The notes below the pieces were generated by a model. The model searched no databases. It was not told the origin of the DNA and was given only the letters and a program-made list of their open reading frames with translations. DNA of 64,000 nucleotides from Lysobacterales bacterium (GTDB lineage: Bacteria > Pseudomonadota > Gammaproteobacteria > Xanthomonadales > SZUA-5): assembly GCA_041395325.1 (NCBI GenBank), contig JAWLAT010000008.1, positions 55,102 to 119,101 on the forward strand, given 5' to 3'. A program made the translations under genes and the position numbers. Positions 13,515 to 25,856 of the stretch are shown piece by piece (the stretch's first letter is position 1; every line of letters starts with the position of its first letter).

Positions 13515-15908
13515 ATGCGAGTGCTGCCAAACTGGTTGGCCGGGTTGTTGTTGCTGCAGGGCGGCGTTGCGCTGGCCGCACCCGAACTGACACTGGAACA
13601 GGCCATGGCCAATCCTGACTGGATCGGCAATGCGCCGGAGTCGGCCTATCTGGATGCGGCAGGCAGCCAGGTGTTGTTCCAGCGCAAGCGTGACGGCAGC
13701 GAGCTGCGGGATCTGTGGCGGGTGCCTTTCGCCGGTGGCGCAGCGGCGGCCACCGTGCCGATGGACGAGCTCAACACGGTCGACGGTTCGAATTGGCGGC
13801 TGGACGCATCCGGTCGTGCCGTGTTCACCCGCGATGGCGATCTGTGGTTGCGCCAGACCGACGGCCAGCTGCGTCAGTTGACGCGGACGCCGGCCAGCGA
13901 ATCCGAGCCGGCCTGGATGAGCGATGGCCGCATCATGGTGCGCCAGGATGCCGACTGGTGGATTGCCGAGCCGGCCAGCGGCCTGTACTACCCGGCCTAT
14001 CAACTCAGCTTTGGCAAGGATCCCAGCCAGCAGGAACCCGAAGGCCTGTCGGCCGAGGAACTGCGCCTGATCGACACGCTGCGCTACGAGCGCGAGCAGG
14101 AATTGGCGCGCCTGGCGCAGAAGACCGAGCGCAGCCGCGGTGATGCCAGCCAGCTGGCGCCGACGATCTGGTTCGATCCGGCCTGGGAGGCCAGCGGCAA
14201 TGCGCTGTCGGCCGATGGCCGCTGGCTGGTGCTGGCCGTGCGCGCCAAGGATGCGGCCAAGCAGAGCCAGGGCGACAAGATGCCCAAGTTCGTGGCTCGC
14301 TCGGGCTATGTGGAGATCGAGGATGTGCGGCCGCTGGTTGGGCGCAACGGCTTTCCGGCCGAACAGCTATGGCTGATCGACCTGCGCGATGGCAGTCAGC
14401 GACAGCTGGCCTTTGACCAGCTGCCGGGGATCACCGACGACCCCTTGGCCGATCTGCGCGCACAGGCGGAGAACAAGGACAAGAAGGCCTCCGACAAGAA
14501 GGACCCGGCCGAAGCCAAGCCACGACCGGTGCGGATCGGCGACCTGCAGTTCAACGAGGCCGGTGATGCACTGGCGGCGAGCATCTTCAGTCTGGACAAC
14601 AAGGACCGCTGGATCGCCCGGGTCAACCTGGCCAAGGCCGAGCTGGATCCGGTCCACCACCTGCACGACCCTGCCTGGATCAACTGGAGCTTCAACGATT
14701 ATGGCTGGCTGCCCGGCAGCCGTGACCTGTGGTTGCTGTCCGAGCAGTCCGGCTACTCACATCTGTATCTGCAGCGGCAGGGTCAGAAGCCCAAGGCGCT
14801 GACCAAGGGCCGCTGGGAAGTGCTGAGCAACTCGATCCAGACGCCTCGCGACGGACGCTGGATCTACTTCGGCGCCAATCGCGAAAGCCCGTTCCGCAAT
14901 GAGGTCTACCGGTTGCCGGCGCGCGGCGGCGAGATCGAGCAGCTGACCCAAGTCGGCGGCGTCAACGAGTATCGGCTCAGTGCCGACGGGGCACAGCTGC
15001 TGCTGATCCACTCGACCAGTTACAGCCCGCCGCAGTTGTGGCGCCAGGCCGCCCGAGCCGGCGCCGAGGCCAGCCTGCTGTTCGATCCGCGCACCGAGGC
15101 CTATCGCGCCCATGAGTTGCAGCCGCCGGAATTCGTCTGGTACCAGTCCACCCACGGCGACTTCCAGATTCCGGCCAAGCTCTATCGGCCCCGCGGCGAC
15201 GGCCCGGGCCGCGGCGCGGCAGTGATCTTCATTCACGGCGCCGGCTACACCCAGGATGTGCACGAAGGCTATCCGTACTATTTCCGCGAGCAGATGTTCC
15301 ACAACCTGCTGACGGCCGCCGGTGTCACCGTGATCGTGCCGGACTATCGCGCCAGTGAGGGCTATGGCCGCGACTGGCGCACCGCGATCTACCGGCAGAT
15401 GGGCCATCCGGAACTGGAGGATCTGCTCGACGCCAAGGCCTACATGGTGGCGATGCACGGCGTCGACCCCGACCGGATCGCCGTCTACGGCGGCAGCTAT
15501 GGCGGCTTCATGACGATGATGGCGCTGTTCCGCGCGCCGACGGATTTTGCCGCGGGCGCCGCGCTGCGCCCGGTCACCGACTGGATGCACTACAACCATC
15601 CTTACACCGCCAACATCCTCAACACACCGCAGGTGGATCCGGAGGCCTATCGGATTTCCAGTCCCATCGAACACGCCGCCGGCCTGCAGCGCCCGTTGCT
15701 GATCGCCCACGGCATGCTCGACGACAACGTCTTCTTCAAGGATTCGGTGCGGTTGGTGCAGCGTCTGATCGAGCTGCGCAAAGGGCGCTGGTTCGAACTG
15801 GCGGCCTACCCGCTGGAACGCCACGGCTATGTCTATTCCGACAGCTGGTACGACCAGTACGGCCGCATCTGGCGGCTGTTCTCCCGCGAACTGGGCTTCC
15901 CGGAGTAA
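13515..15908 (+). CDS. S9-family serine peptidase (prolyl oligopeptidase / dipeptidyl aminopeptidase-like), secreted
   Basis: Signal peptide; long N-terminal propeller-like region; C-terminal alpha/beta-hydrolase with GGSYGGFMT nucleophile elbow and HGMLDDNV (Asp) ... ERHGY (His). Confidence 0.9.
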   Translation: MRVLPNWLAGLLLLQGGVALAAPELTLEQAMANPDWIGNAPESAYLDAAGSQVLFQRKRDGSELRDLWRVPFAGGAAAATVPMDELNTVDGSNWRLDASGRAVFTRDGDLWLRQTDGQLRQLTRTPASESEPAWMSDGRIMVRQDADWWIAEPASGLYYPAYQLSFGKDPSQQEPEGLSAEELRLIDTLRYEREQELARLAQKTERSRGDASQLAPTIWFDPAWEASGNALSADGRWLVLAVRAKDAAKQSQGDKMPKFVARSGYVEIEDVRPLVGRNGFPAEQLWLIDLRDGSQRQLAFDQLPGITDDPLADLRAQAENKDKKASDKKDPAEAKPRPVRIGDLQFNEAGDALAASIFSLDNKDRWIARVNLAKAELDPVHHLHDPAWINWSFNDYGWLPGSRDLWLLSEQSGYSHLYLQRQGQKPKALTKGRWEVLSNSIQTPRDGRWIYFGANRESPFRNEVYRLPARGGEIEQLTQVGGVNEYRLSADGAQLLLIHSTSYSPPQLWRQAARAGAEASLLFDPRTEAYRAHELQPPEFVWYQSTHGDFQIPAKLYRPRGDGPGRGAAVIFIHGAGYTQDVHEGYPYYFREQMFHNLLTAAGVTVIVPDYRASEGYGRDWRTAIYRQMGHPELEDLLDAKAYMVAMHGVDPDRIAVYGGSYGGFMTMMALFRAPTDFAAGAALRPVTDWMHYNHPYTANILNTPQVDPEAYRISSPIEHAAGLQRPLLIAHGMLDDNVFFKDSVRLVQRLIELRKGRWFELAAYPLERHGYVYSDSWYDQYGRIWRLFSRELGFPE

Positions 15909-16259: not shown

Positions 16260-18056
16260 TCAGCTGTTGGCCGCCACCGGATTGGCGGCAGGGCGATCGG
16301 TGCGCCGGCGCGTTTGATGCACCACGCGGTTGCGACCCTTGCGCTTGGCTTCATACAGCGCCGCATCGGCGGCAATCAGCAACTCGCGCAGATCGAAGCC
16401 ATCGTCAGCGGTGGTCGCCACGCCGAAGCTGGCCGACAAACGACTGGGCGAATCGGGCTCGCCGTAGTAGATCTGGTGCACCGCCACCCGGCATTGCTCG
16501 GCCAGCGCCACGGCCGCTTCGCTGGATTGGCCAGGCAGCAGGAATCCAAATTCCTCACCACCGAGGCGGCCAAACAGCCCATGCGGTGCCAGCGTGTCAC
16601 GACAGCAATCGGCGGCGCGACGCAGCATCTCGTCACCGACGGCGTGACCATGGTCGTCGTTGACGGTCTTGAAGAAGTCCAGATCCATGATCAGCAGCGC
16701 GGCGTGGCTGCCGCTGCGCTCTGCCTTCTCCAGCAATCGCCGGGACTGCTCGATGAAATAGGGTCGACTGGCCGCGCCGGTCAGCGAATCGCTCTGCGCC
16801 AGATGCTGGAAGTGCCGCTGCATCTTGCGCGTGCGCAGTGCCCAGAACACCGCAAAGCCCAACACCGTCAGCAGCAGCAGAATCGACAGCCGCGCGTTCT
16901 GCACCGCCGTCTTGGTCACTTCCTGCTGCAGCTTCAGCAATTCGTTCTGCTGGTTCAGACCTTCAATTTCCAGCTTCTGCGCCTGCGTGCGATAACGGGC
17001 CAGCTGAAAGGCGAGTGCTCGCTGGCCGATGTCATCCAGATTGGCCCGCTCGACCTCCGCATTGCGCTGCAGCGCCTGAAAGGCCGCGGCGTAGTCGCCG
17101 CGTTGACTGGCCACGTCAGCCAGAACTCGCCAGGCTTCGGCCAATGGCTCGGTGTTCTCGCCGGGGCGGGTGATATCGATGGCTTCCTGTGCCCGGGCCT
17201 CGGCCTCACCCAGATCACCGATGGCTAGATGAGCCTTGGCTAGCTGCACGGCCATGTCGGAGATCACATACGGATAGCGCGTGCTCTCTATCGCGCTTCG
17301 GTGAGGTTGCAGTGCGGATATGGCGGCCAGCGCTCGGTCGTGCTTGAGGTGCAGTTTTGCTTCTGTGACCCGCATGCTGCTCGCTATCAATGCCTCGCCG
17401 TTGCGCGCACAGTCATCAATGCTTGAAACCAGTGCAGAGTCCACGTCCGCGAGCAGGCCAGATTTCAAACCTGAGTCTGCCTTCAGAGCTTCCGCGCCGC
17501 AGCGGATCCACGGAACTGTCGCTTCCCGGAGAAGTTGAGATGTGAACTTGATGCTGTCCTCATGCTGCCCAACGACATTGTGCAGCTGAGCGGCGACCGC
17601 CAAAGCTTGGGCTCGGGCAGCGGCATCCGACTGCTGCGGCAGTTCCTCCATCAACAAGTTCAGGTGTTCGAAGCTCTCCGTGTGTCGCCGGGCGAGACTG
17701 AAAGCATTGACGATGGTGCTCCGGCTCCTGAACCTGATTGTCGGATTCGTCGCGTGTTGTATCAGTGCCTGCAGCCTGTCGATCGCAAGGGCATGATTTC
17801 CCTCATAGGTTGCCTGCCAACCTCGAAGGTACTCGATTCTCTCCCTTTGGTCGGCGCTGAGTTGCGCTGTACCCTCCGAAAGCGCGTCCAGTTCGGCGAC
17901 GAAGGTCGCGAAATCGACTCTCTTCAGTTCCTCCAGACGAGCGAGCCGGTCGTCGGTGCTGTCGGCTCCTTGAGCCGACAGCATGCCAACGAGCAGCAGC
18001 ACCAGTCCCGCAGCAAGGCCCCTATGCAGCCAAGATTTGGGAATGGATCTGACCAC
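16260..18056 (-). CDS. Diguanylate cyclase (GGDEF) with signal/TM anchor, TPR-like extracytoplasmic region, second TM and coiled-coil
   Basis: C-terminal GGDEF domain: SDSLTGAASRPYF, DLDFFKTVNDDHGHAVGD, active-site RLGGEEFGFLL, EALYEAKRKGRNRV. The longest ORF starts with GTG at 18056, 12 nt after the stop of the upstream small ORF. Confidence 0.9.
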   Translation of the reverse strand: MVRSIPKSWLHRGLAAGLVLLLVGMLSAQGADSTDDRLARLEELKRVDFATFVAELDALSEGTAQLSADQRERIEYLRGWQATYEGNHALAIDRLQALIQHATNPTIRFRSRSTIVNAFSLARRHTESFEHLNLLMEELPQQSDAAARAQALAVAAQLHNVVGQHEDSIKFTSQLLREATVPWIRCGAEALKADSGLKSGLLADVDSALVSSIDDCARNGEALIASSMRVTEAKLHLKHDRALAAISALQPHRSAIESTRYPYVISDMAVQLAKAHLAIGDLGEAEARAQEAIDITRPGENTEPLAEAWRVLADVASQRGDYAAAFQALQRNAEVERANLDDIGQRALAFQLARYRTQAQKLEIEGLNQQNELLKLQQEVTKTAVQNARLSILLLLTVLGFAVFWALRTRKMQRHFQHLAQSDSLTGAASRPYFIEQSRRLLEKAERSGSHAALLIMDLDFFKTVNDDHGHAVGDEMLRRAADCCRDTLAPHGLFGRLGGEEFGFLLPGQSSEAAVALAEQCRVAVHQIYYGEPDSPSRLSASFGVATTADDGFDLRELLIAADAALYEAKRKGRNRVVHQTRRRTDRPAANPVAANS

Positions 18057-18068
18057 CGATCGTACCTG

Positions 18069-18356
18069 TCAGGCAGCTCGACGATTTTCTGAAGGCTCTC
18101 GAGGTTCTTCAGGAGCGTCGTCCTGGTCACCTTGATCCGGTTGGTCTGGATCCTTTGCCGGAAACACCAAACAGGTGAGTGTGGTGCTTGCGGCAAAGTG
18201 TGCGTTGCATGCGATCCGATCGCGGTTGGCGACGAGGTCCAATTCCTCAGATGACAGTCCTGCCAATGCCCCGGCAGTGGTCAGTTCGTTCGTAGAGGCA
18301 TCGCCGAGCGATGCGTCTGCGCCACACGTCTCGAGAAAAGCCATCAGCTTGTTCAT
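18069..18356 (-). CDS. Candidate split-borosin-type RiPP precursor peptide (95 aa)
   Basis: MNKLMAFLETCGADASLGDASTNELTTAGALAGLSSEELDLVANRDRIACNAHFAASTTLTCLVFPAKDPDQPDQGDQDDAPEEPREPSENRRAA. Its ATG overlaps the GNAT stop (ATGA at 18353-18356), and a GGGGGAAG Shine-Dalgarno lies just upstream. The leader layout resembles, from my memory, the recognition leader of the Shewanella split-borosin precursor. Confidence 0.6.
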   Translation of the reverse strand: MNKLMAFLETCGADASLGDASTNELTTAGALAGLSSEELDLVANRDRIACNAHFAASTTLTCLVFPAKDPDQPDQGDQDDAPEEPREPSENRRAA

Positions 18357-18994
18357 CTACTTCCCCCACTAGTGGATTTGCGAACACCAGGCGTCCAGCG
18401 ATCTGCCGCTACCGCCAAGCGCGACCAGAGCATAACCGCACCCAGTTCGGTTTCGGCGGTCTTGCCAGTAAAACCCATCAACCTTGCAACTCTGCACGCC
18501 GCAAGATTGTCAGCCTTGCAGCGCAATAGAAGCCTGCTGACGCCGAGCCTCTGAAGTTGATCAGCCAGTGCACGCATCCCCTCAACAGCCAACCCGTGGC
18601 CCTGAGCTTGGCTGGGTGCGATCACTCCCATCTCCCATTGAGAGCCATCAGGGTCCCAACGGTCTGCACTATAAATTGCCGCTAGGCGTCCACTCTCACG
18701 GACCTCCGCGGCGACTCTCAGGCTCTGGAAGGGCAGTTGCCTTCGATCCCAAGGAAGTGACTGAAAAGGGTCACTGAATTTCCTGAGAGATGATCGGATT
18801 CTCGGCGGGTATTGATTGGCTCGAAGTGCCCACGTGAAGTGTTCGCGAGCGGTTGCTTCGGATAGCGGTTCTCCGATCTTCCTCATGACGCGAGGGTCCC
18901 GATAGAGCGCGATGTACTCCGACTCGTGCTCGGAAGCCAACAGTCGCAGCGTTAGGCGACGCGTATGGGAAAGCTCAATGACGCTTGTAGTCAC
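18353..18994 (-). CDS. GNAT-family N-acetyltransferase (RimJ/RimL, Acetyltransf_3-like)
   Basis: N-terminal TRRLTLRLL...YRDPRVMRKIG pattern and acetyl-CoA motif QAQGHGLAVEG. GTG start 3 nt after the methyltransferase TAG stop; its stop overlaps the precursor ATG. Confidence 0.8.
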   Translation of the reverse strand: MTTSVIELSHTRRLTLRLLASEHESEYIALYRDPRVMRKIGEPLSEATAREHFTWALRANQYPPRIRSSLRKFSDPFQSLPWDRRQLPFQSLRVAAEVRESGRLAAIYSADRWDPDGSQWEMGVIAPSQAQGHGLAVEGMRALADQLQRLGVSRLLLRCKADNLAACRVARLMGFTGKTAETELGAVMLWSRLAVAADRWTPGVRKSTSGGSR

Positions 18995-18997
18995 GTA

Positions 18998-19798
18998 CTA
19001 GGCCAGGTTGCCAGTTGCTGCTGCAAGCATGGATCGCATCCGCTCATCCACCCGCATCGCTCGACCTGGCGGAATCACCAGCGTGTCGGCCAGGTCCACG
19101 TCAGCCTCGGTCAGGTCCGACAAGGCGATCCACCGAAGCTTCGCCTGCTCCAGCGGAAAGGTGGCGGCGCGATAGAGGCAGACCTGATGGTCGCCCGGGT
19201 AGTCGCGTAGCAGCACTTCGACCAGCAGAGCGCGTTGCGCGCGGCCTGTTGAAAGTTGCGCAAGGGAGCGGTCCCCGACCACGCCGACTTGCCACAGGAT
19301 CAGCAGGGCGGCAGGGTCAAAGCGGCGTTGGTAGAGCAGGAACTGCGTGGCTTCGTAGTGCTGGCAGCCGCAGTCTCCCGGATCCAGGCCGAGATCGGCA
19401 TAGAGGCAGTCTTCGGCCGACACGCCCGGCTCCAGTCGGGCGCGGATACCTTCGGCACGGGCGCGGCGGATGGCCTCATGCGGCACCCAGGCGAATACGC
19501 CGGGATGACCGTAGAAGGCGCCACAGACGCGCTGGCCGTCGCGCGCCGCGGTCAGCATCTCCTCGACCATGCCCTCATAACCGATCCGCCGCGAACGACC
19601 TTCCTGATAATGCGGCTGCAGACTGATGAAACGCTGGCTGAGCTCTTCCACCCAGCGTTCCACCAGGCCATCGGAAAAATTGCCGTAGACCACATCGGCG
19701 TGCTCGATTTCGTGCCGGGCTCGCGGCGTCAGATGCCCGCCCAGCAGCATACCGGTACCGACGCAGACCAGCTGTCCGTGGCGGGTGACTTCGCTCAT
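18998..19798 (-). CDS. SAM-dependent TP_methylase-fold enzyme of the borosin-type peptide alpha-N-methyltransferase kind
   Basis: From ATG 19798: MSEVTRHGQLVCVGTGM..., ADVVY, AFYGHPGVFAWVPHEAIRRARAEG, LEPGVSAEDCLYADLGLDPGDCGCQHYEATQFLL, ILWQVGVVGD. This motif set and order match what I recall for OphMA/SonM-type peptide N-methyltransferases rather than corrin/uroporphyrinogen or rRNA methylases. Confidence 0.78.
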   Translation of the reverse strand: MSEVTRHGQLVCVGTGMLLGGHLTPRARHEIEHADVVYGNFSDGLVERWVEELSQRFISLQPHYQEGRSRRIGYEGMVEEMLTAARDGQRVCGAFYGHPGVFAWVPHEAIRRARAEGIRARLEPGVSAEDCLYADLGLDPGDCGCQHYEATQFLLYQRRFDPAALLILWQVGVVGDRSLAQLSTGRAQRALLVEVLLRDYPGDHQVCLYRAATFPLEQAKLRWIALSDLTEADVDLADTLVIPPGRAMRVDERMRSMLAAATGNLA

Positions 19799-19864
19799 CA
19801 CCACTGTCCTCGCTATCGGGGAGCACACCGAAGGTGCCCGAGCACCCAGATTCTATCGGGGCAT

Positions 19865-19886
19865 CCCGATCAACGTCAGGATCGGG
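19865..19886. promoter_or_regulatory. Inverted repeat CCCGATC-N8-GATCGGG upstream of the methyltransferase gene
   Basis: 7-bp perfect arms in the 171-bp gap between the upstream GNAT gene and the methyltransferase start. Two CTATCGGGG direct repeats lie nearby (19811-19819, 19852-19860). Function unknown. Confidence 0.25.
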
Positions 19887-19969: not shown

Positions 19970-20524
19970 TCAGTCCGTGCCTGAGTCAGCTGTCGCGAGC
20001 GCATCTGAACTCGCCGTCGGTTGCAGCAGCAGTTGCCAATAGCCCACATCCACCCAGCGGCCCAGCTTGTGGCCGACCTGTTCGAAATGGGCAACCTTGC
20101 GGAAACCCAGCCGCTCATGCAGCGCCACGCTGGGCGCATTGGGCAGCGCAATCCCGCCGATGGCGGTGTGCAGCTGGCGGGCGCGCAATTCGGCAAGCAG
20201 CGCCGAGTACAGCCGTCCACCCAGTCCGCGGCCGAGGTGCGCTCGATCCAGATACACCGTCGATTCCACCGAGTGTCGATAGGCGGGCCGTCCCTTCCAC
20301 GGCGTCGCACAGGCATAGCCGAGCAACTGCCCGGCGTGCTCGGCCACCAGCCACGGCAATGTGGCGGACTGCACCTCGGCAATGCGCTGGGCCATCGTTG
20401 CGGCCGCGACGGCTTCCGTTTCGAAACTGACCCAGGTCCCCAGCACATAGGGGTTGTAGATCGCTGCAATCCCGCCGGCATCAGCCAACGTGACGGGACG
20501 AATCTGCACCATCGACCGATCCAT
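19970..20524 (-). CDS. GNAT-family acetyltransferase, phosphinothricin/MSO acetyltransferase-like
   Basis: From MDRSMVQIRPVTLADAGGIAAIYNPYVLGTWVSFETE... to RGLGGRLYSALL (CoA motif) ... ALHERLGFRKVAHFEQVGHKLGRWVDV, typical of the PAT subfamily. The upstream extension to 20635 overlaps the GrpB gene and is rejected. Confidence 0.85.
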   Translation of the reverse strand: MDRSMVQIRPVTLADAGGIAAIYNPYVLGTWVSFETEAVAAATMAQRIAEVQSATLPWLVAEHAGQLLGYACATPWKGRPAYRHSVESTVYLDRAHLGRGLGGRLYSALLAELRARQLHTAIGGIALPNAPSVALHERLGFRKVAHFEQVGHKLGRWVDVGYWQLLLQPTASSDALATADSGTD

Positions 20525-20528
20525 TGCC

Positions 20529-21011
20529 TCAAGGCCGCCAGCGCTGGTGGATGCGGTCGTAGAAGACCTGCTTCTCGGCCTGATAGCGCGACTTGTCGTT
20601 CGGGTATTTCGCCTGCAGTGCGCGCTTGAGGGCATTCAGCTCGGCCACCAGGGCTGGCTCGGCGCGCATCACTTCAACGAAGTGCAGATGCAGTAGCGCA
20701 TCCCGATGGCCGGTCTGGAAACAATGCAGATGCACCTTGGGGCGTTCGCGGACGAAATATTCGCGACCCTCGATGCCATGGGCGCCCCGCGCCTCGTAGC
20801 CGATGGTCTCGAAACGCTGGCGCGCGTGGCCAACCTCGGCCAGATCCGAGACCAGACCGAGAATATCGATGCAGTTCTTGGCGATCAGTCCCGGCACAGC
20901 GGTGGAGCCGATGTGGTGGAAGCGGATCTCTCCGGGGTAGGCCGAGTGCAGTTGAGTGACCGCCCGCGCGTAGGCCGCGGGCCACTCGGGGGATGGTTCA
21001 ACGAGATACAT
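20529..21011 (-). CDS. GrpB (UPF0157) family protein
   Basis: HHIGSTAVPGLIAKNCIDIL and HLH...HRDALLHL...LRA.P....EY..LK motifs characteristic of GrpB. Confidence 0.85.
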   Translation of the reverse strand: MYLVEPSPEWPAAYARAVTQLHSAYPGEIRFHHIGSTAVPGLIAKNCIDILGLVSDLAEVGHARQRFETIGYEARGAHGIEGREYFVRERPKVHLHCFQTGHRDALLHLHFVEVMRAEPALVAELNALKRALQAKYPNDKSRYQAEKQVFYDRIHQRWRP

Positions 21012-23906: not shown

Positions 23907-24166
23907 TCGGCTCGCTCCTGAGACTCGATGCGCAGATGGTCTCAGGAATCGTCGAAGGATGCTCTGGGGACTCATCTGGGAGTCGTCATCTCCCCAACTT
24001 GCCCACACAGGCCCAGTGAGTTGCCTCAAATCGCACGCCGCAACTTCGCTGACGCTCTAGAGTGAGAGAAATCCCTTGGTTCGGCAAGTAGACAATGAAG
24101 TAACGGGCATTGACTAATAAAATCCGTTCAGTTTCAAACGACCCAATCATAATATGCGAGGAAGAA

Positions 24167-25856
24167 ATGGCGCTAGGCGAAGAACCGGCGAGTACGCCAA
24201 GTCCTCCACGGCCTTGGACGATCAAAGATGCAATAACATCGGTGATCGGGATGGTGGAAGAGGTTCCCAGTTGGCCGCCGGATCTATATGCGGTTGCAGC
24301 AACTATCCTCGCAGAAACAGGTGGGTACGTTCACGCCACGCATCTCGGATCGGGATGTGGGATCGAAACATGGAATGATGTAGCCCGATCACTCGCTTCG
24401 GAATGGGTTATTAAAGATGATCTGGAAGTAGAATGCATCCCTGGTGAAGTGCAAAATCTATGGGGGGAGTTGATCAGCCGCCACGACTTGGATCTTTCAA
24501 AAGTTCCAGGTGATTCGAGAATCTGCACCACTTTGGTAAAGCTACTGGCAATCGCTGACGAATGCAGTGCCGGGTTTGGTATAGATACCAACGATCCGAT
24601 ATGCCGTTCCGTCCTCGTTCTGCTCGCAAAAAACCGTTCGGCATCGCTGACAAAGAACGTACGGCTTGATAGGGCGCGAGTCCTACCAAAACAGCACACG
24701 CCGCAAACTGGCCTAACACTACGGTCACTTTCTCACCACTTGGCTTTAATCAGACCTAGAGGGGTGTCCGCGATTTGGTGCGCCCCGCTCGTTTTTAAGA
24801 AGCGTCAGGACGAAGACATAATAAATATCCTGATTTGTCCTTGGCCAGAAACAACCTCGGAGGCAGACTTTCGTACGGTGTTCTCCGTTCCGGACCATCA
24901 GGTCAGCAATAACTCAGTTCACAGGTTCTTCTGCTTCGACCCAAAGCACCCTGACGACAAGGAGGCTTTTGGCTCGAAACTGAGTAGGCGCGTTGCGGCA
25001 GGGAAGAGAATTTGTGGTGACATCCACCTGATCGTATTTCCAGAGCTTTCTTTGAGCGAAGACTGCCTCTCTGTGGCGAGGCGATTGGCTAACGAACATG
25101 GTGCAATGTTGGTGGCCGGCGTACGGCGTCGAGATAAGGGAAAGCGTCCTCTCAAATGTGCAGACGGTGATGAGCTTGGGGCGACAAGAAACACTTGCTT
25201 CGTCGACAGTCAAGGGTTATTCGCGAGAGGGTTCGAGAAGAACGAGCTCGACACCCTTTCTGGATTCAAGTTCGGAGAGTTTCAAGACAAGCATCATCGA
25301 TGGTCTCTCGACTGGCGCCAAGTGCTTCAATACGGCCTCGGGAGTCGATTGCCCACTTCTCGCCAGTGTTGGGAATGGACGCCGATCCGAGAGCGCCGTA
25401 TGCACTTTTGGACTATCAGCAACTGGCTTACTTGGGCACCATTGATCTGCGAGGACTTGGCCAGACAGGATCCGTTGCAGACATCAATACCTGAAGAGCT
25501 CGCCCCAAACCTCGTCATGGCTCTCCTTATGGACGGCCCGCAGCTTAGCAAGTAGTTGGTCTGCGAGGTTTGCCATGTGCTAGCGGAGGACCCCGGGTCT
25601 TCCGTCTTAACGATTACAAGTTTGGGGTTGACTCAGTAAAGGGTCTCCAGACGGAAAAGCCGGTTCTAGAGTTGTTTGTCTATGGCGGGACTTGCTCAGC
25701 GGCTTCCACGAGATTGAGATTCCAGAAGGCGCGGATTGTGGAGTCTTGAGCGTATCTCCGGTAAGGAGAGAGGAGTGGAGCGCAGACGGCCGGAGCGATG
25801 GAATGGTGTCGAGTACGCCCGTGTTCGCCGGTTTCACACCACTCCCCGTGGATTAG
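24167..25856 (+). pseudogene. Disrupted gene for a large protein with a C-terminal nitrilase-superfamily (CN-hydrolase)-like domain, in a low-GC islet
   Basis: Candidate Glu-Lys-Cys triad in order: HLIVFPELSL, FQDKHHRW, WAPLICEDLARQ, with spacing of about 82 and 53 aa. In-frame TAG at 25553-25555, after which the same frame still reads protein-like (LVCEVCHVLAEDPGSSVLTITSLGLTQ). TAA at 25637-25639, then the +1 frame continues (KGSPDGKAGSRVVCLWRDLLSGFHEIEIPEGADCGVLSV...TPLPVD) to TAG 25854-25856. First ATG is 24167 (the track starts at TTG 24110). Confidence 0.5.

What the first reader, a model, noticed from the sequence alone, without database searches (positions are those of the whole stretch)
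18069..18356. Precursor architecture: helical recognition-type leader, Cys-bracketed hydrophobic core, unusually long acidic Pro-rich follower
Seen: residues 1-46 (MNKLMAFLETCGADASLGDASTNELTTAGALAGLSSEELDLVANRD) form an amphipathic, helix-prone region ending in GL(S/T)xEExxxVxxxD. From memory this parallels the leader of the Shewanella split-borosin substrate. Residues 47-68, RIACNAHFAASTTLTCLVFPAK (nt 18153-18218), are the only hydrophobic stretch. They contain Cys50 and Cys62 flanking 11 residues, followed by LVFP. Residues 69-95 (DPDQPDQGDQDDAPEEPREPSENRRAA) form a strongly acidic Pro-rich tail.

Inference: the core lies around 47-68 (aliphatic/aromatic residues are the usual N-methylation targets). 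A disulfide or other Cys-based macrocycle is possible. The acidic tail could be a follower removed by proteolysis or a solubility/export handle.
Basis: partly seen in the sequence, partly recalled or inferred. Interest (0 to 1): 0.65.

Follow-up and report, generated by a model that had tools for sequence, protein, structure and literature searches.

The report
Split-borosin precursor peptide, SamA1/SonA type
The 95-residue ORF is a real, ordinary member of a described family of bacterial peptide precursors whose backbone is N-methylated by the neighbouring enzyme. Its acidic tail is typical of the family and, by the one experimental precedent, is probably the released product rather than a discarded follower.

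Summary
It is third in a tight four-gene operon: a SonM/SamM1-like backbone N-methyltransferase, a PF13302 acetyltransferase, this ORF, and a TPR-GGDEF diguanylate cyclase.

A profile of 57 relatives finds only SonA in the whole PDB (E 8e-8, no gaps over residues 1-56). It matches the characterised precursor SamA1 at 96.6% hhalign probability. AlphaFold gives the five helices of the borosin binding domain, with helix 5 at residues 47-53.

- **Cys bracket.** Cys50 is unique to this sequence (Leu or Ile in 55 of 57 relatives). Cys62 is nearly invariant.
- **"Unusually long" tail.** The family median is 31 residues, and 40 of 57 tails are net acidic.
- **Core at 47-68.** Residues 47-53 belong to the leader fold.

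In SamA1, methylation in the aligned C-x-F-F|P motif licenses a pepsin-like protease to cut before Pro and release the unmethylated anionic tail. By analogy, the tail from P66 would be the product here. No such protease lies in this window.

Verdict: a new member of a known kind, of modest interest.

The parts
18069..18356 (-). Precursor ORF (95 aa plus stop): a type IV split-borosin precursor, SamA1/SonA-like.
   Evidence: ORF listing. 74 HMMER hits (one a repeat artefact). Family profile versus PDB finds only SonA, E 8e-8. hhalign versus SamA1 gives probability 96.6%. The identical protein is on 15 contigs and is NCBI MCB1632962.1, 'hypothetical protein'.
18192..18356 (-). Residues 1-55: borosin binding domain (BBD), a five-helix leader that docks onto the methyltransferase.
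   Evidence: AlphaFold2 with the 57-sequence alignment gives helices 3-13, 15-18, 22-31, 36-43 and 47-53, with block-mean pLDDT 90-96 over residues 1-50. The best PDB fold match is SonA 7ltc_B, and SonA chains reach TM 0.72-0.74 at rmsd 2.4-2.5 A. The profile aligns without gaps to SonA 1-56. SonA's BBD is residues 1-53 and its helix 5 is M47-L53 (PMC10549244).
18159..18173 (-). Residues 62-66 (C-L-V-F-P): conserved junction motif. Inferred site of backbone N-methylation (L63, V64 or F65) and of proteolytic cleavage (F65|P66).
   Evidence: Cys62 is present in 55/57, V/I/L64 in 52/57, F/Y65 in 37/57 and P66 in 35/57 relatives. The motif aligns to SamA1 C50-V51-F52(Me)-F53|P54 and to SonA Y62-L63(Me)-V64-I65(Me)-S66. 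It is the hydropathy maximum of the protein. Methylation and cleavage are inferred, not shown.
18072..18161 (-). Residues 66-95 (PAKDPDQPDQGDQDDAPEEPREPSENRRAA): anionic, Pro-rich, disordered tail ending in RRAA. Inferred to be the released peptide.
   Evidence: Composition. No secondary structure predicted and falling pLDDT. The family tail median is 31 aa, 40/57 are net acidic and 32/57 end in [VAIL]A. The SamA1 tail PAEDEPEKEQQENEEEDEAPKA was detected in cells after the SamP cut.
18353..18994 (-). GNAT acetyltransferase (PF13302, 213 aa), translationally coupled to the precursor. Its substrate is unknown.
   Evidence: Pfam E 1.6e-15. Its stop codon overlaps the precursor ATG. The same gene order occurs in L001-L004 and L009-L016. 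PF13302 occurs in about 26% of split-borosin clusters and in the sam cluster.
18998..19798 (-). Borosin alpha-N-methyltransferase (TP_methylase fold). The probable start is the ATG at 19798; the longest ORF starts at the GTG at 19828.
   Evidence: phmmer versus PDB SonM 7LTC gives E 2.1e-66. It is 55% identical to SamM1 and 44% to SonM. The YGHP and DCLYAD motifs are present, and residues aligned to SonM Y58, R67, Y71, F99 and W166 are conserved (alignment; motifs and residues).
16260..18056 (-). TPR-transmembrane-GGDEF diguanylate cyclase (GGEEF motif intact), starting 12 nt after the precursor stop. It is the fourth gene of the operon.
   Evidence: Pfam GGDEF 1.2e-36 and TPR_12. Homologues follow the precursor in L001-L007 and L009-L016. 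A GGDEF gene follows sonA in S. oneidensis, and GGDEF occurs in 56% of split-borosin clusters.
19850..19879 (-). Sigma-70-like promoter match (CTGACG-18-TAGAAT) about 50 nt upstream of the methyltransferase ATG. Possible operon promoter.
   Evidence: Consensus scan, 9 of 12 matches. This is a weak pattern match only.

Best explanation
The ORF is the precursor peptide of a type IV ('split') borosin pathway of the SamA1 subtype, in an uncultured Xanthomonadales/Lysobacterales bacterium.

Shown by computation:
- Residues 1-55 form the five-helix borosin binding domain.
- The enzyme encoded two genes upstream is a SonM/SamM1-type SAM-dependent backbone amide N-methyltransferase with its catalytic residues intact.
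- Residues 62-66 (CLVFP) are a family-conserved junction motif.
- Residues 66-95 are a disordered, anionic, Pro-rich tail that is typical of the family.

Inferred from homology:
- The binding domain docks on the methyltransferase dimer.
- The enzyme methylates one or two backbone amides among L63, V64 and F65.
- Methylation then acts as a licence for an endopeptidase to cut F65|P66. In S. amazonensis this endopeptidase is the pepsin-like SamP. Here it is unidentified and not in the window.
- The cut frees an unmethylated 30-residue anionic peptide, PAKDPDQPDQGDQDDAPEEPREPSENRRAA.
- This peptide may then be trimmed at the C-terminus and acetylated by the translationally coupled PF13302 acetyltransferase.

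The biological role is unknown. The invariable co-transcription with a TPR-GGDEF cyclase points to a link with c-di-GMP signalling.
For: Identity:
- The methyltransferase hits SonM structures at E 2e-66. It is 55% identical to SamM1.
- A 57-member family profile that excludes SonA finds only SonA chains in the PDB (E 8e-8, no gaps, 1-56 to 1-56). A 4-sequence profile already ranks SonA first.
- hhalign against SamA1 gives probability 96.6%, E 6.5e-10. It aligns TCLVFPAKD with FCVFFPAED.
- AlphaFold2 (mean pLDDT 84.8) gives five helices, with helix 5 at 47-53 exactly as in SonA. SonA is the top PDB fold hit, with TM up to 0.74.

Context:
- The gene order MT-GNAT-precursor-TPR/GGDEF has gaps of 3, -4 and 12 nt.
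- The GNAT, precursor and GGDEF genes follow the methyltransferase in L001-L004 and L009-L016; GNAT is not detected in L005, and L006 carries a GNAT-sized ORF there.
- The RODEO borosin module scores local GGDEF and acetyltransferase genes as features.

Mechanism precedent:
- SamA1 is methylated on F52. SamP cuts F53|P54 efficiently only when the substrate is methylated. The anionic tail was detected in vivo, and PF13302 is in the sam cluster (sequences).
- Family conservation fits this logic. The junction at 60-66 is conserved (1.92 bits) and the tail is the most variable segment (2.76 bits).
Against: - No SamP/A1 aspartic peptidase lies in the 64 kb window, nor within 7 kb of six of the seven related genomic loci that were checked.
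- Only 194 of 2,699 borosin methyltransferases have such a peptidase in their cluster.
- The other characterised relative, SonA, yields a product that keeps its two N-methylated residues (Shewanellamide A). The fate of the methylated segment therefore differs between the two precedents.
- The methylated positions also differ. In the window's register, SonA gives 63 and 65, while SamA1 gives 64.
- The SamA1 work is a preprint, and its authors say the final natural product is not yet established.
- Nothing here demonstrates methylation, cleavage or acetylation.
Confidence: 0.6

Rival explanations
1. SonA-type maturation. The product is a linear peptide that keeps the N-methylated residues, for example a C-terminal fragment starting in the linker (about residues 55-60) and running through CLVFP into the acidic tail. 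Host proteases not encoded in the cluster release it.
For: Shewanellamide A is the 16 C-terminal residues of SonA, methylated at L63 and I65. No protease is encoded in the son cluster. The window ORF aligns without gaps to SonA, so L63 and F65 fall on the methylated positions. There is no SamP homologue in the window.
Against: The window's methyltransferase is closer to SamM1 (55%) than to SonM (44%). The junction motif C-x-h-F-P, the acidic tail and the PF13302 gene are SamA1 features that SonA lacks. SonA has Tyr where 55/57 family members have Cys62.
Confidence: 0.25
2. Not a secreted natural product. The methylated small protein, or its tail, is an intracellular regulatory partner of the co-transcribed TPR-GGDEF cyclase, and backbone methylation acts as a regulatory switch.
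For: The TPR-GGDEF gene is the most constant neighbour. It is found in L001-L007 and L009-L016 and in 56% of split-borosin clusters. No exporter or protease is in the operon. The native role of the son cluster is described as elusive.
Against: The TPR domain of these cyclases is predicted to be periplasmic, which would require export of the ligand. Both studied systems release peptides. There is no direct evidence for any interaction.
Confidence: 0.1
3. Residues 47-68 are the core, closed by a Cys50-Cys62 disulfide or other Cys-based macrocycle, and the acidic tail is a follower or solubility handle that is discarded.
For: Both cysteines exist and flank 11 residues. The hydropathy maximum lies at 59-65.
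Against: Position 50 is Leu or Ile in 55/57 relatives, and Cys only in the window. Residues 47-53 are helix 5 of the leader domain. No cyclase, oxidase or other Cys-modifying enzyme is in the operon. The tail is conserved in character across the family and was the detected product in the sam system.
Confidence: 0.03
4. A chance ORF in GC-rich DNA that is not translated.
For: Its GC3 is only 0.54, against 0.72-0.85 in neighbouring genes. Long spurious ORFs are common in this window.
Against: 74 HMMER hits, nearly all with conserved length and register. Significant profile matches to two experimentally characterised precursors. A conserved position between the GNAT and GGDEF genes. The neighbouring GNAT shares the low GC3 (0.57), so the composition marks a module rather than non-coding DNA.
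Confidence: 0.01

Closest known systems
SamA1 / SamM1 / SamP pathway of Shewanella amazonensis SB2B (bioRxiv 10.1101/2024.01.09.574750)
   Same: A discrete BBD precursor with a C-x-h-F|P junction followed by a highly anionic Pro-containing tail ending in Ala. The methyltransferase is 55% identical. A PF13302 acetyltransferase is in the cluster.
   Different: No pepsin-like SamP in the window. The window's leader is 12 residues longer (65 versus 53 residues before the Pro). P2 is Val rather than Phe. The window's operon places the GNAT between methyltransferase and precursor, and the ORFs overlap.
SonA / SonM of Shewanella oneidensis MR-1 (Shewanellamide A; PDB 7LTC, 7LTE; PMC8429565, PMC10549244)
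   Same: The five-helix BBD is in the identical register (no gaps over 1-56). The hydrophobic methylation site is at residues 63-65. A GGDEF gene lies immediately downstream. The methyltransferase has the same catalytic residues.
   Different: SonA ends 6 residues after the methylated Ile and has no acidic tail. It has Tyr62 instead of the family Cys, and no acetyltransferase. Its product retains the methylations. Methyltransferase identity is only 44%.
Fungal fused borosins (OphMA / omphalotin, types I-III)
   Same: A homologous N-methyltransferase domain (E about 1e-39 to 1e-43), with the BBD homologous to part of the OphMA clasp.
   Different: The substrate is fused to the enzyme and methylated autocatalytically at many sites. 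A prolyl oligopeptidase then macrocyclises it. Here the substrate is a separate small ORF, with probably one or two methylations.
Multi-core split-borosin precursors (type V RceA; multi-core relatives seen here)
   Same: The same leader. The closest genomic relative, L001, carries a second precursor with three VFAA repeats. P0028, P0037 and P0054 are similar.
   Different: The window's precursor has a single junction motif and a long tail rather than repeated cores.

Membership tests
Type IV split borosin precursor (BBD-fused precursor) | N-terminal borosin binding domain homologous to SonA residues 1-53 (five-helix bundle) | tested here: met
   Family profile versus PDB finds only SonA, E 8e-8, with no gaps. 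AF2 gives five helices with helix 5 at 47-53. SonA is the top fold hit, TM up to 0.74, although Foldseek E-values are not significant for so small a domain. A single-sequence phmmer search found nothing.
Type IV split borosin precursor (BBD-fused precursor) | Encoded as a discrete ORF next to a borosin alpha-N-methyltransferase carrying the YGHP and DCLFAD motifs | tested here: met
   A separate 266-276 aa TP_methylase lies two genes upstream. SonM match E 2e-66, with YGHPGVF and DCLYAD present and the residues aligned to SonM Y58, R67 and Y71 conserved (motifs).
Type IV split borosin precursor (BBD-fused precursor) | Backbone alpha-N-methylation of residues C-terminal to the BBD | not testable with these tools
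   This needs co-expression and LC-MS/MS. Only positional homology to the methylated residues of SonA and SamA1 is available.
SamA1-type (methylation-gated release of an anionic tail) | Junction motif Cys-x-hydrophobic-Phe followed by Pro | tested here: met
   The window's C62-L-V-F-P66 aligns to SamA1 C50-V-F-F-P54. The motif is conserved in the family.
SamA1-type (methylation-gated release of an anionic tail) | Long anionic C-terminal segment after the Pro | tested here: met
   30 residues, 10 acidic versus 4 basic, 6 Pro. The SamA1 tail is 25 residues with 11 acidic (sequence; counts).
SamA1-type (methylation-gated release of an anionic tail) | PF00026 pepsin-like peptidase (SamP) in the cluster or elsewhere in the genome | tested here: not met
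   tblastn with SamP gives a best E of 1.2 in the 64 kb window. There is also none within 7 kb in L001-L006 and L008. L007 (Aliikangiella) has one, at 41% identity. No window ORF of at least 250 aa has two D[TS]G motifs. The rest of the genome could not be searched, so a distal copy is not excluded.
SamA1-type (methylation-gated release of an anionic tail) | PF13302 acetyltransferase in the cluster | tested here: met
   Pfam E 1.6e-15. The gene overlaps the precursor start.
   Cys50 is in 1/57 and Cys62 in 55/57 relatives. Cys11 is in 6/57. No covarying pair exists.

The most novel reading that the evidence does not exclude
In this lineage the backbone methyl mark may gate release of the anionic, Pro-rich peptide by a protease other than SamP. 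The translationally coupled acetyltransferase would modify the peptide, and the product would be the ligand of the periplasmic TPR domain of the co-transcribed diguanylate cyclase. This would be a peptide signal controlling c-di-GMP rather than an antibiotic. The near-invariant Cys62, the fixed 65-residue leader and the recurrent basic-then-[VAIL]A C-terminus would then be functional recognition elements that are still unexplained.
Probability: 0.12. Interest if true: 0.65.

Novelty: new member of a known kind. Interest (0 to 1): 0.3.

Why it matters
The locus adds a Xanthomonadales example to a pathway class whose products and biological role are still largely unknown. Only one bacterial borosin metabolite has been fully established.

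Its practical value is as a clean, minimal four-gene test case with no in-cluster protease. It could answer three questions:
- Is 'methylate the leader to license release of an unmodified anionic tail' a general rule?
- What does the ubiquitous PF13302 acetyltransferase do?
- Why is a TPR-GGDEF cyclase almost always co-transcribed?

The family-wide numbers gathered here give concrete hypotheses for that work: the fixed 65-residue leader, Cys62 in 55/57 members, the median tail of 31 residues, and the recurrent C-terminal [VAIL]A. For the scan itself, the lesson is that the finding is correct in kind, but its most eye-catching details (the Cys bracket and the 'unusual' tail) are not special.

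Tried and rejected
- **Direct searches of the ORF.** Pfam, NCBIfam and single-sequence phmmer against the PDB gave no hit. Profiles were needed.
- **Word-indexed homologue search.** It returned only three proteins. The exhaustive HMMER scan was needed to see the family.
- **Shallow-alignment AlphaFold model** (4 sequences, pLDDT 66). The fold search was inconclusive, with DsbA fragments on top and SonA at rank 12. A 57-sequence alignment fixed this.
- **The convergent S9 prolyl-oligopeptidase-family gene (13515-15908)** as the pathway protease, which was attractive because the cut site precedes Pro and fungal borosins use a POP. Rejected because the neighbour differs in each relative: an M16 peptidase in L009, a probable transporter permease (read from the sequence) in L001, a probable glycosidase (read from the sequence) in L005. 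It also carries a signal-peptide-like N-terminus.
- **SamP in the window.** Neither tblastn nor a motif scan found one.
- **P0006**, a 2,180-aa hit with 23 matched stretches. It is a repetitive adhesin-like protein and a repeat artefact, not a relative.
- **Cys50-Cys62 or Cys11-Cys62 pairing.** There is no covariation.
- **GNAT versus PDB.** Only a marginal RimI match (E 0.009) and spurious Kelch hits, so nothing can be said about its substrate.

Full report
**Observation.** Residues 47-68 map to nt 18153-18218, as stated.

The three-part layout is real. Residues 1-46 have no Pro and a mean hydropathy near 0. Residues 59-65 (TLTCLVF) form the hydropathy maximum (2.24). Residues 69-95 hold 10 acidic residues, 3 Arg and 5 Pro, with mean hydropathy -2.46.

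The claim of "the only hydrophobic stretch" is overstated. Residues 28-34 and 4-10 are also hydrophobic, and 47-57 are not.

The ATG overlaps the stop codon of the upstream gene (ATGA), and a G-rich Shine-Dalgarno-like run precedes it.

**Context.** The ORF is the third gene of a compact minus-strand operon:
- a TP_methylase (18998-19828, probable start 19798);
- a PF13302 GNAT acetyltransferase (18353-18994);
- the ORF itself;
- a TPR-GGDEF diguanylate cyclase (16260-18056).

The gaps between these genes are 3, -4 and 12 nt. A weak sigma-70-like match lies about 50 nt upstream of the methyltransferase.

The methyltransferase matches the solved SonM structures at E 2e-66 and the fungal OphMA-type enzymes at about 1e-40. 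It carries the YGHP and DCL(F/Y)AD motifs used to define borosin methyltransferases. The residues aligned to SonM Y58, R67, Y71, F99 and W166 are conserved (residue roles). It is 55% identical to SamM1 of Shewanella amazonensis and 44% to SonM.

**Homology of the ORF.** Direct searches found nothing, and the word-indexed search gave three relatives.
- A profile of just these four sequences ranked SonA first in the PDB, aligned 4-58 to 4-58 without gaps.
- An exhaustive HMMER scan of 1.84 billion cluster representatives found 74 proteins with E<=1e-3. Nearly all are 71-117 aa and matched 1-68 to 1-68.
- A 57-sequence alignment of single-core members, excluding SonA and SamA1, hits only SonA chains in the PDB at E 8e-8.
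- The same alignment matches SamA1 by hhalign at 96.6% probability, E 6.5e-10.
- AlphaFold2 on this alignment gives mean pLDDT 84.8 and helices 3-13, 15-18, 22-31, 36-43 and 47-53. This is the five-helix borosin binding domain, with helix 5 exactly where SonA's 'metamorphic' helix M47-L53 lies.
- SonA is the best PDB fold hit. TM reaches 0.74 at rmsd 2.4-2.5 A, although the Foldseek E-values are not significant for so small a domain.

The exact protein occurs on 15 contigs from several sources and is deposited as a hypothetical protein of a Xanthomonadales MAG. The closest genomic loci are Lysobacterales MAGs, Frateuria, Dyella, Alishewanella and Aliikangiella.

**Family anatomy**.
- The leader before the conserved Pro is 65 residues long in about 50 of 57 members.
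- Nearly invariant positions are L8, E9, G12, L17, D46 and C62.
- Position 50 is Leu (46) or Ile (9). The window alone has Cys there, so the 'Cys bracket' is not a family feature. Cys62 is present in 55/57.
- The junction at residues 60-66 is among the most conserved segments (1.92 bits). The tail from residue 73 is the most variable in sequence and length (2.76 bits, many gaps).
- Tails are at least 20 residues in 50/57 members, with a median of 31. They are net acidic by at least 5 in 40/57 and strongly basic (PKK-rich) in 2.
- 32/57 end in [VAIL]A, often after Arg or Lys.

The window's 30-residue tail is therefore typical. It is long only in comparison with SonA.

**Mechanism.** Two relatives have been studied.
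- SonA is methylated on L63 and I65. It yields Shewanellamide A, its 16 C-terminal residues with both methyl groups kept.
- SamA1 (...DVFCVFF|PAEDEPEKEQQENEEEDEAPKAVNA) is methylated once, on F52. The pepsin-like SamP then cuts F53|P54 efficiently only if the methyl group is present. The unmethylated anionic tail is found in cells. A PF13302 acetyltransferase is in that cluster.

The window shares with SamA1 the junction motif, the tail, the acetyltransferase and the closer methyltransferase. I therefore favour the SamA1 logic:
1. the binding domain docks on the enzyme;
2. one or two amides among L63-F65 are methylated;
3. the methyl mark licenses cleavage at F65|P66;
4. the 30-residue anionic peptide is released and possibly acetylated and C-terminally trimmed.

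Only the fold, the homology and the gene context are shown here. Methylation, cleavage and acetylation are inferred.

The main weakness is the absence of any SamP homologue in the window, or within 7 kb of six of the seven related loci that were checked. The published survey finds such peptidases in only 194 of 2,699 clusters. A SonA-like outcome, in which the product keeps the methylated residues, therefore remains a serious rival.

**Comparison with what is known.** This gene set is already recognised in the literature.
- GGDEF occurs in 56% and PF13302 in about 26% of split-borosin clusters.
- The RODEO borosin module scores local GGDEF, acetyltransferase and peptidase genes as features.
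- Its dataset already contains Dyella precursors with the binding domain and acidic tails.

The window's locus is thus a new, uncharacterised member of a known kind. It passes every testable membership criterion for a type IV split-borosin precursor. It passes all SamA1-type criteria except the in-neighbourhood A1 peptidase.

**Rejected ideas.**
- The adjacent convergent S9 peptidase is not conserved next to the cluster in relatives.
- No Cys pair covaries.
- A 2,180-aa hit is a repeat artefact.
- The GNAT has no informative structural relative.

**Verdict.** The placement of the core, the Cys macrocycle and the 'follower' role of the tail are not supported. Interest is modest. The open questions belong to the whole family rather than to this locus: the final product, the roles of the acetyltransferase and of Cys62, and the link to c-di-GMP.

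Noticed in passing
window 17200-19000 (GNAT 18353-18994 and precursor 18069-18356 in particular): The GNAT and precursor genes have GC3 of 0.57 and 0.54, against 0.72-0.85 for the methyltransferase, GGDEF and flanking genes. Local GC dips to about 0.58. This suggests the GNAT-precursor pair is a separately acquired or faster-evolving module.
   Followed up: partly
L001 7807-9899 (Lysobacterales MAG JAGRJL010000137.1): The closest genomic relative carries two GNAT-precursor pairs after one methyltransferase. One precursor has three VFAA repeats (multi-core) and no acidic tail. The other has the FLFPAKDPDPD... acidic tail ending in RKAA. The GNAT-precursor unit therefore seems to duplicate as a cassette.
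   Followed up: partly
family alignment A4, C-termini (window residues 92-95, nt 18072-18083): 32 of 57 family members end in [VAIL]A, often preceded by Arg or Lys (RRAA, RRVA, RKLA, RHVA). SamA1 ends in KAVNA and loses its last three residues in vivo. A conserved C-terminal recognition or degradation signal is possible but unexplained.
   Followed up: partly
family alignment A4, window residue 62 (nt 18171-18173): Cys62, four residues before the putative cut, is present in 55/57 relatives, and 25/57 have a Cys-Cys pair at 61-62. SonA has Tyr here. No function is known for it, and no Cys-modifying enzyme is in the operon.
   Followed up: no
P0039, P0025, P0027 (relatives): P0039 is a GNAT fused N-terminally to a BBD precursor. 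Its tail, like those of P0025 and P0027, is strongly basic and Pro/Lys-rich (PPKKAPGK...) instead of acidic. The family therefore makes polycationic as well as polyanionic tails.
   Followed up: no
window 13515-15908 (+): A signal-peptide-bearing S9 (DPP-IV/prolyl oligopeptidase family) peptidase lies convergent to the GGDEF gene. In the P0002 relative the same position holds an M16 peptidase (L009 12372-15131). The position is not conserved, so it is probably unrelated to the cluster, but a protease sits next to the operon in both cases.
   Followed up: partly
window 24000-25800 (ORF 24110-25555, +): GC drops sharply to about 0.51 in a 65% GC window. The region contains a 481-aa ORF with no Pfam match. 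It may be a foreign island.
   Followed up: no
window 19970-20635 (-): Immediately upstream of the operon is an ArsN1-type N-acetyltransferase (arsinothricin/phosphinothricin resistance family; NCBIfam 215.8 bits, cutoff 210), followed by a GrpB gene. Both are also present in the identical MAG contig L013. They are probably unrelated to the borosin genes.
   Followed up: no
L007 5641-6828 and 4243-5004 (Aliikangiella marina): This locus has a SamP homologue (41% identity), two methyltransferase genes and a multi-core precursor with six or more SHKALIITPKAQA repeats. It is a richer borosin cluster than the window's.
   Followed up: no
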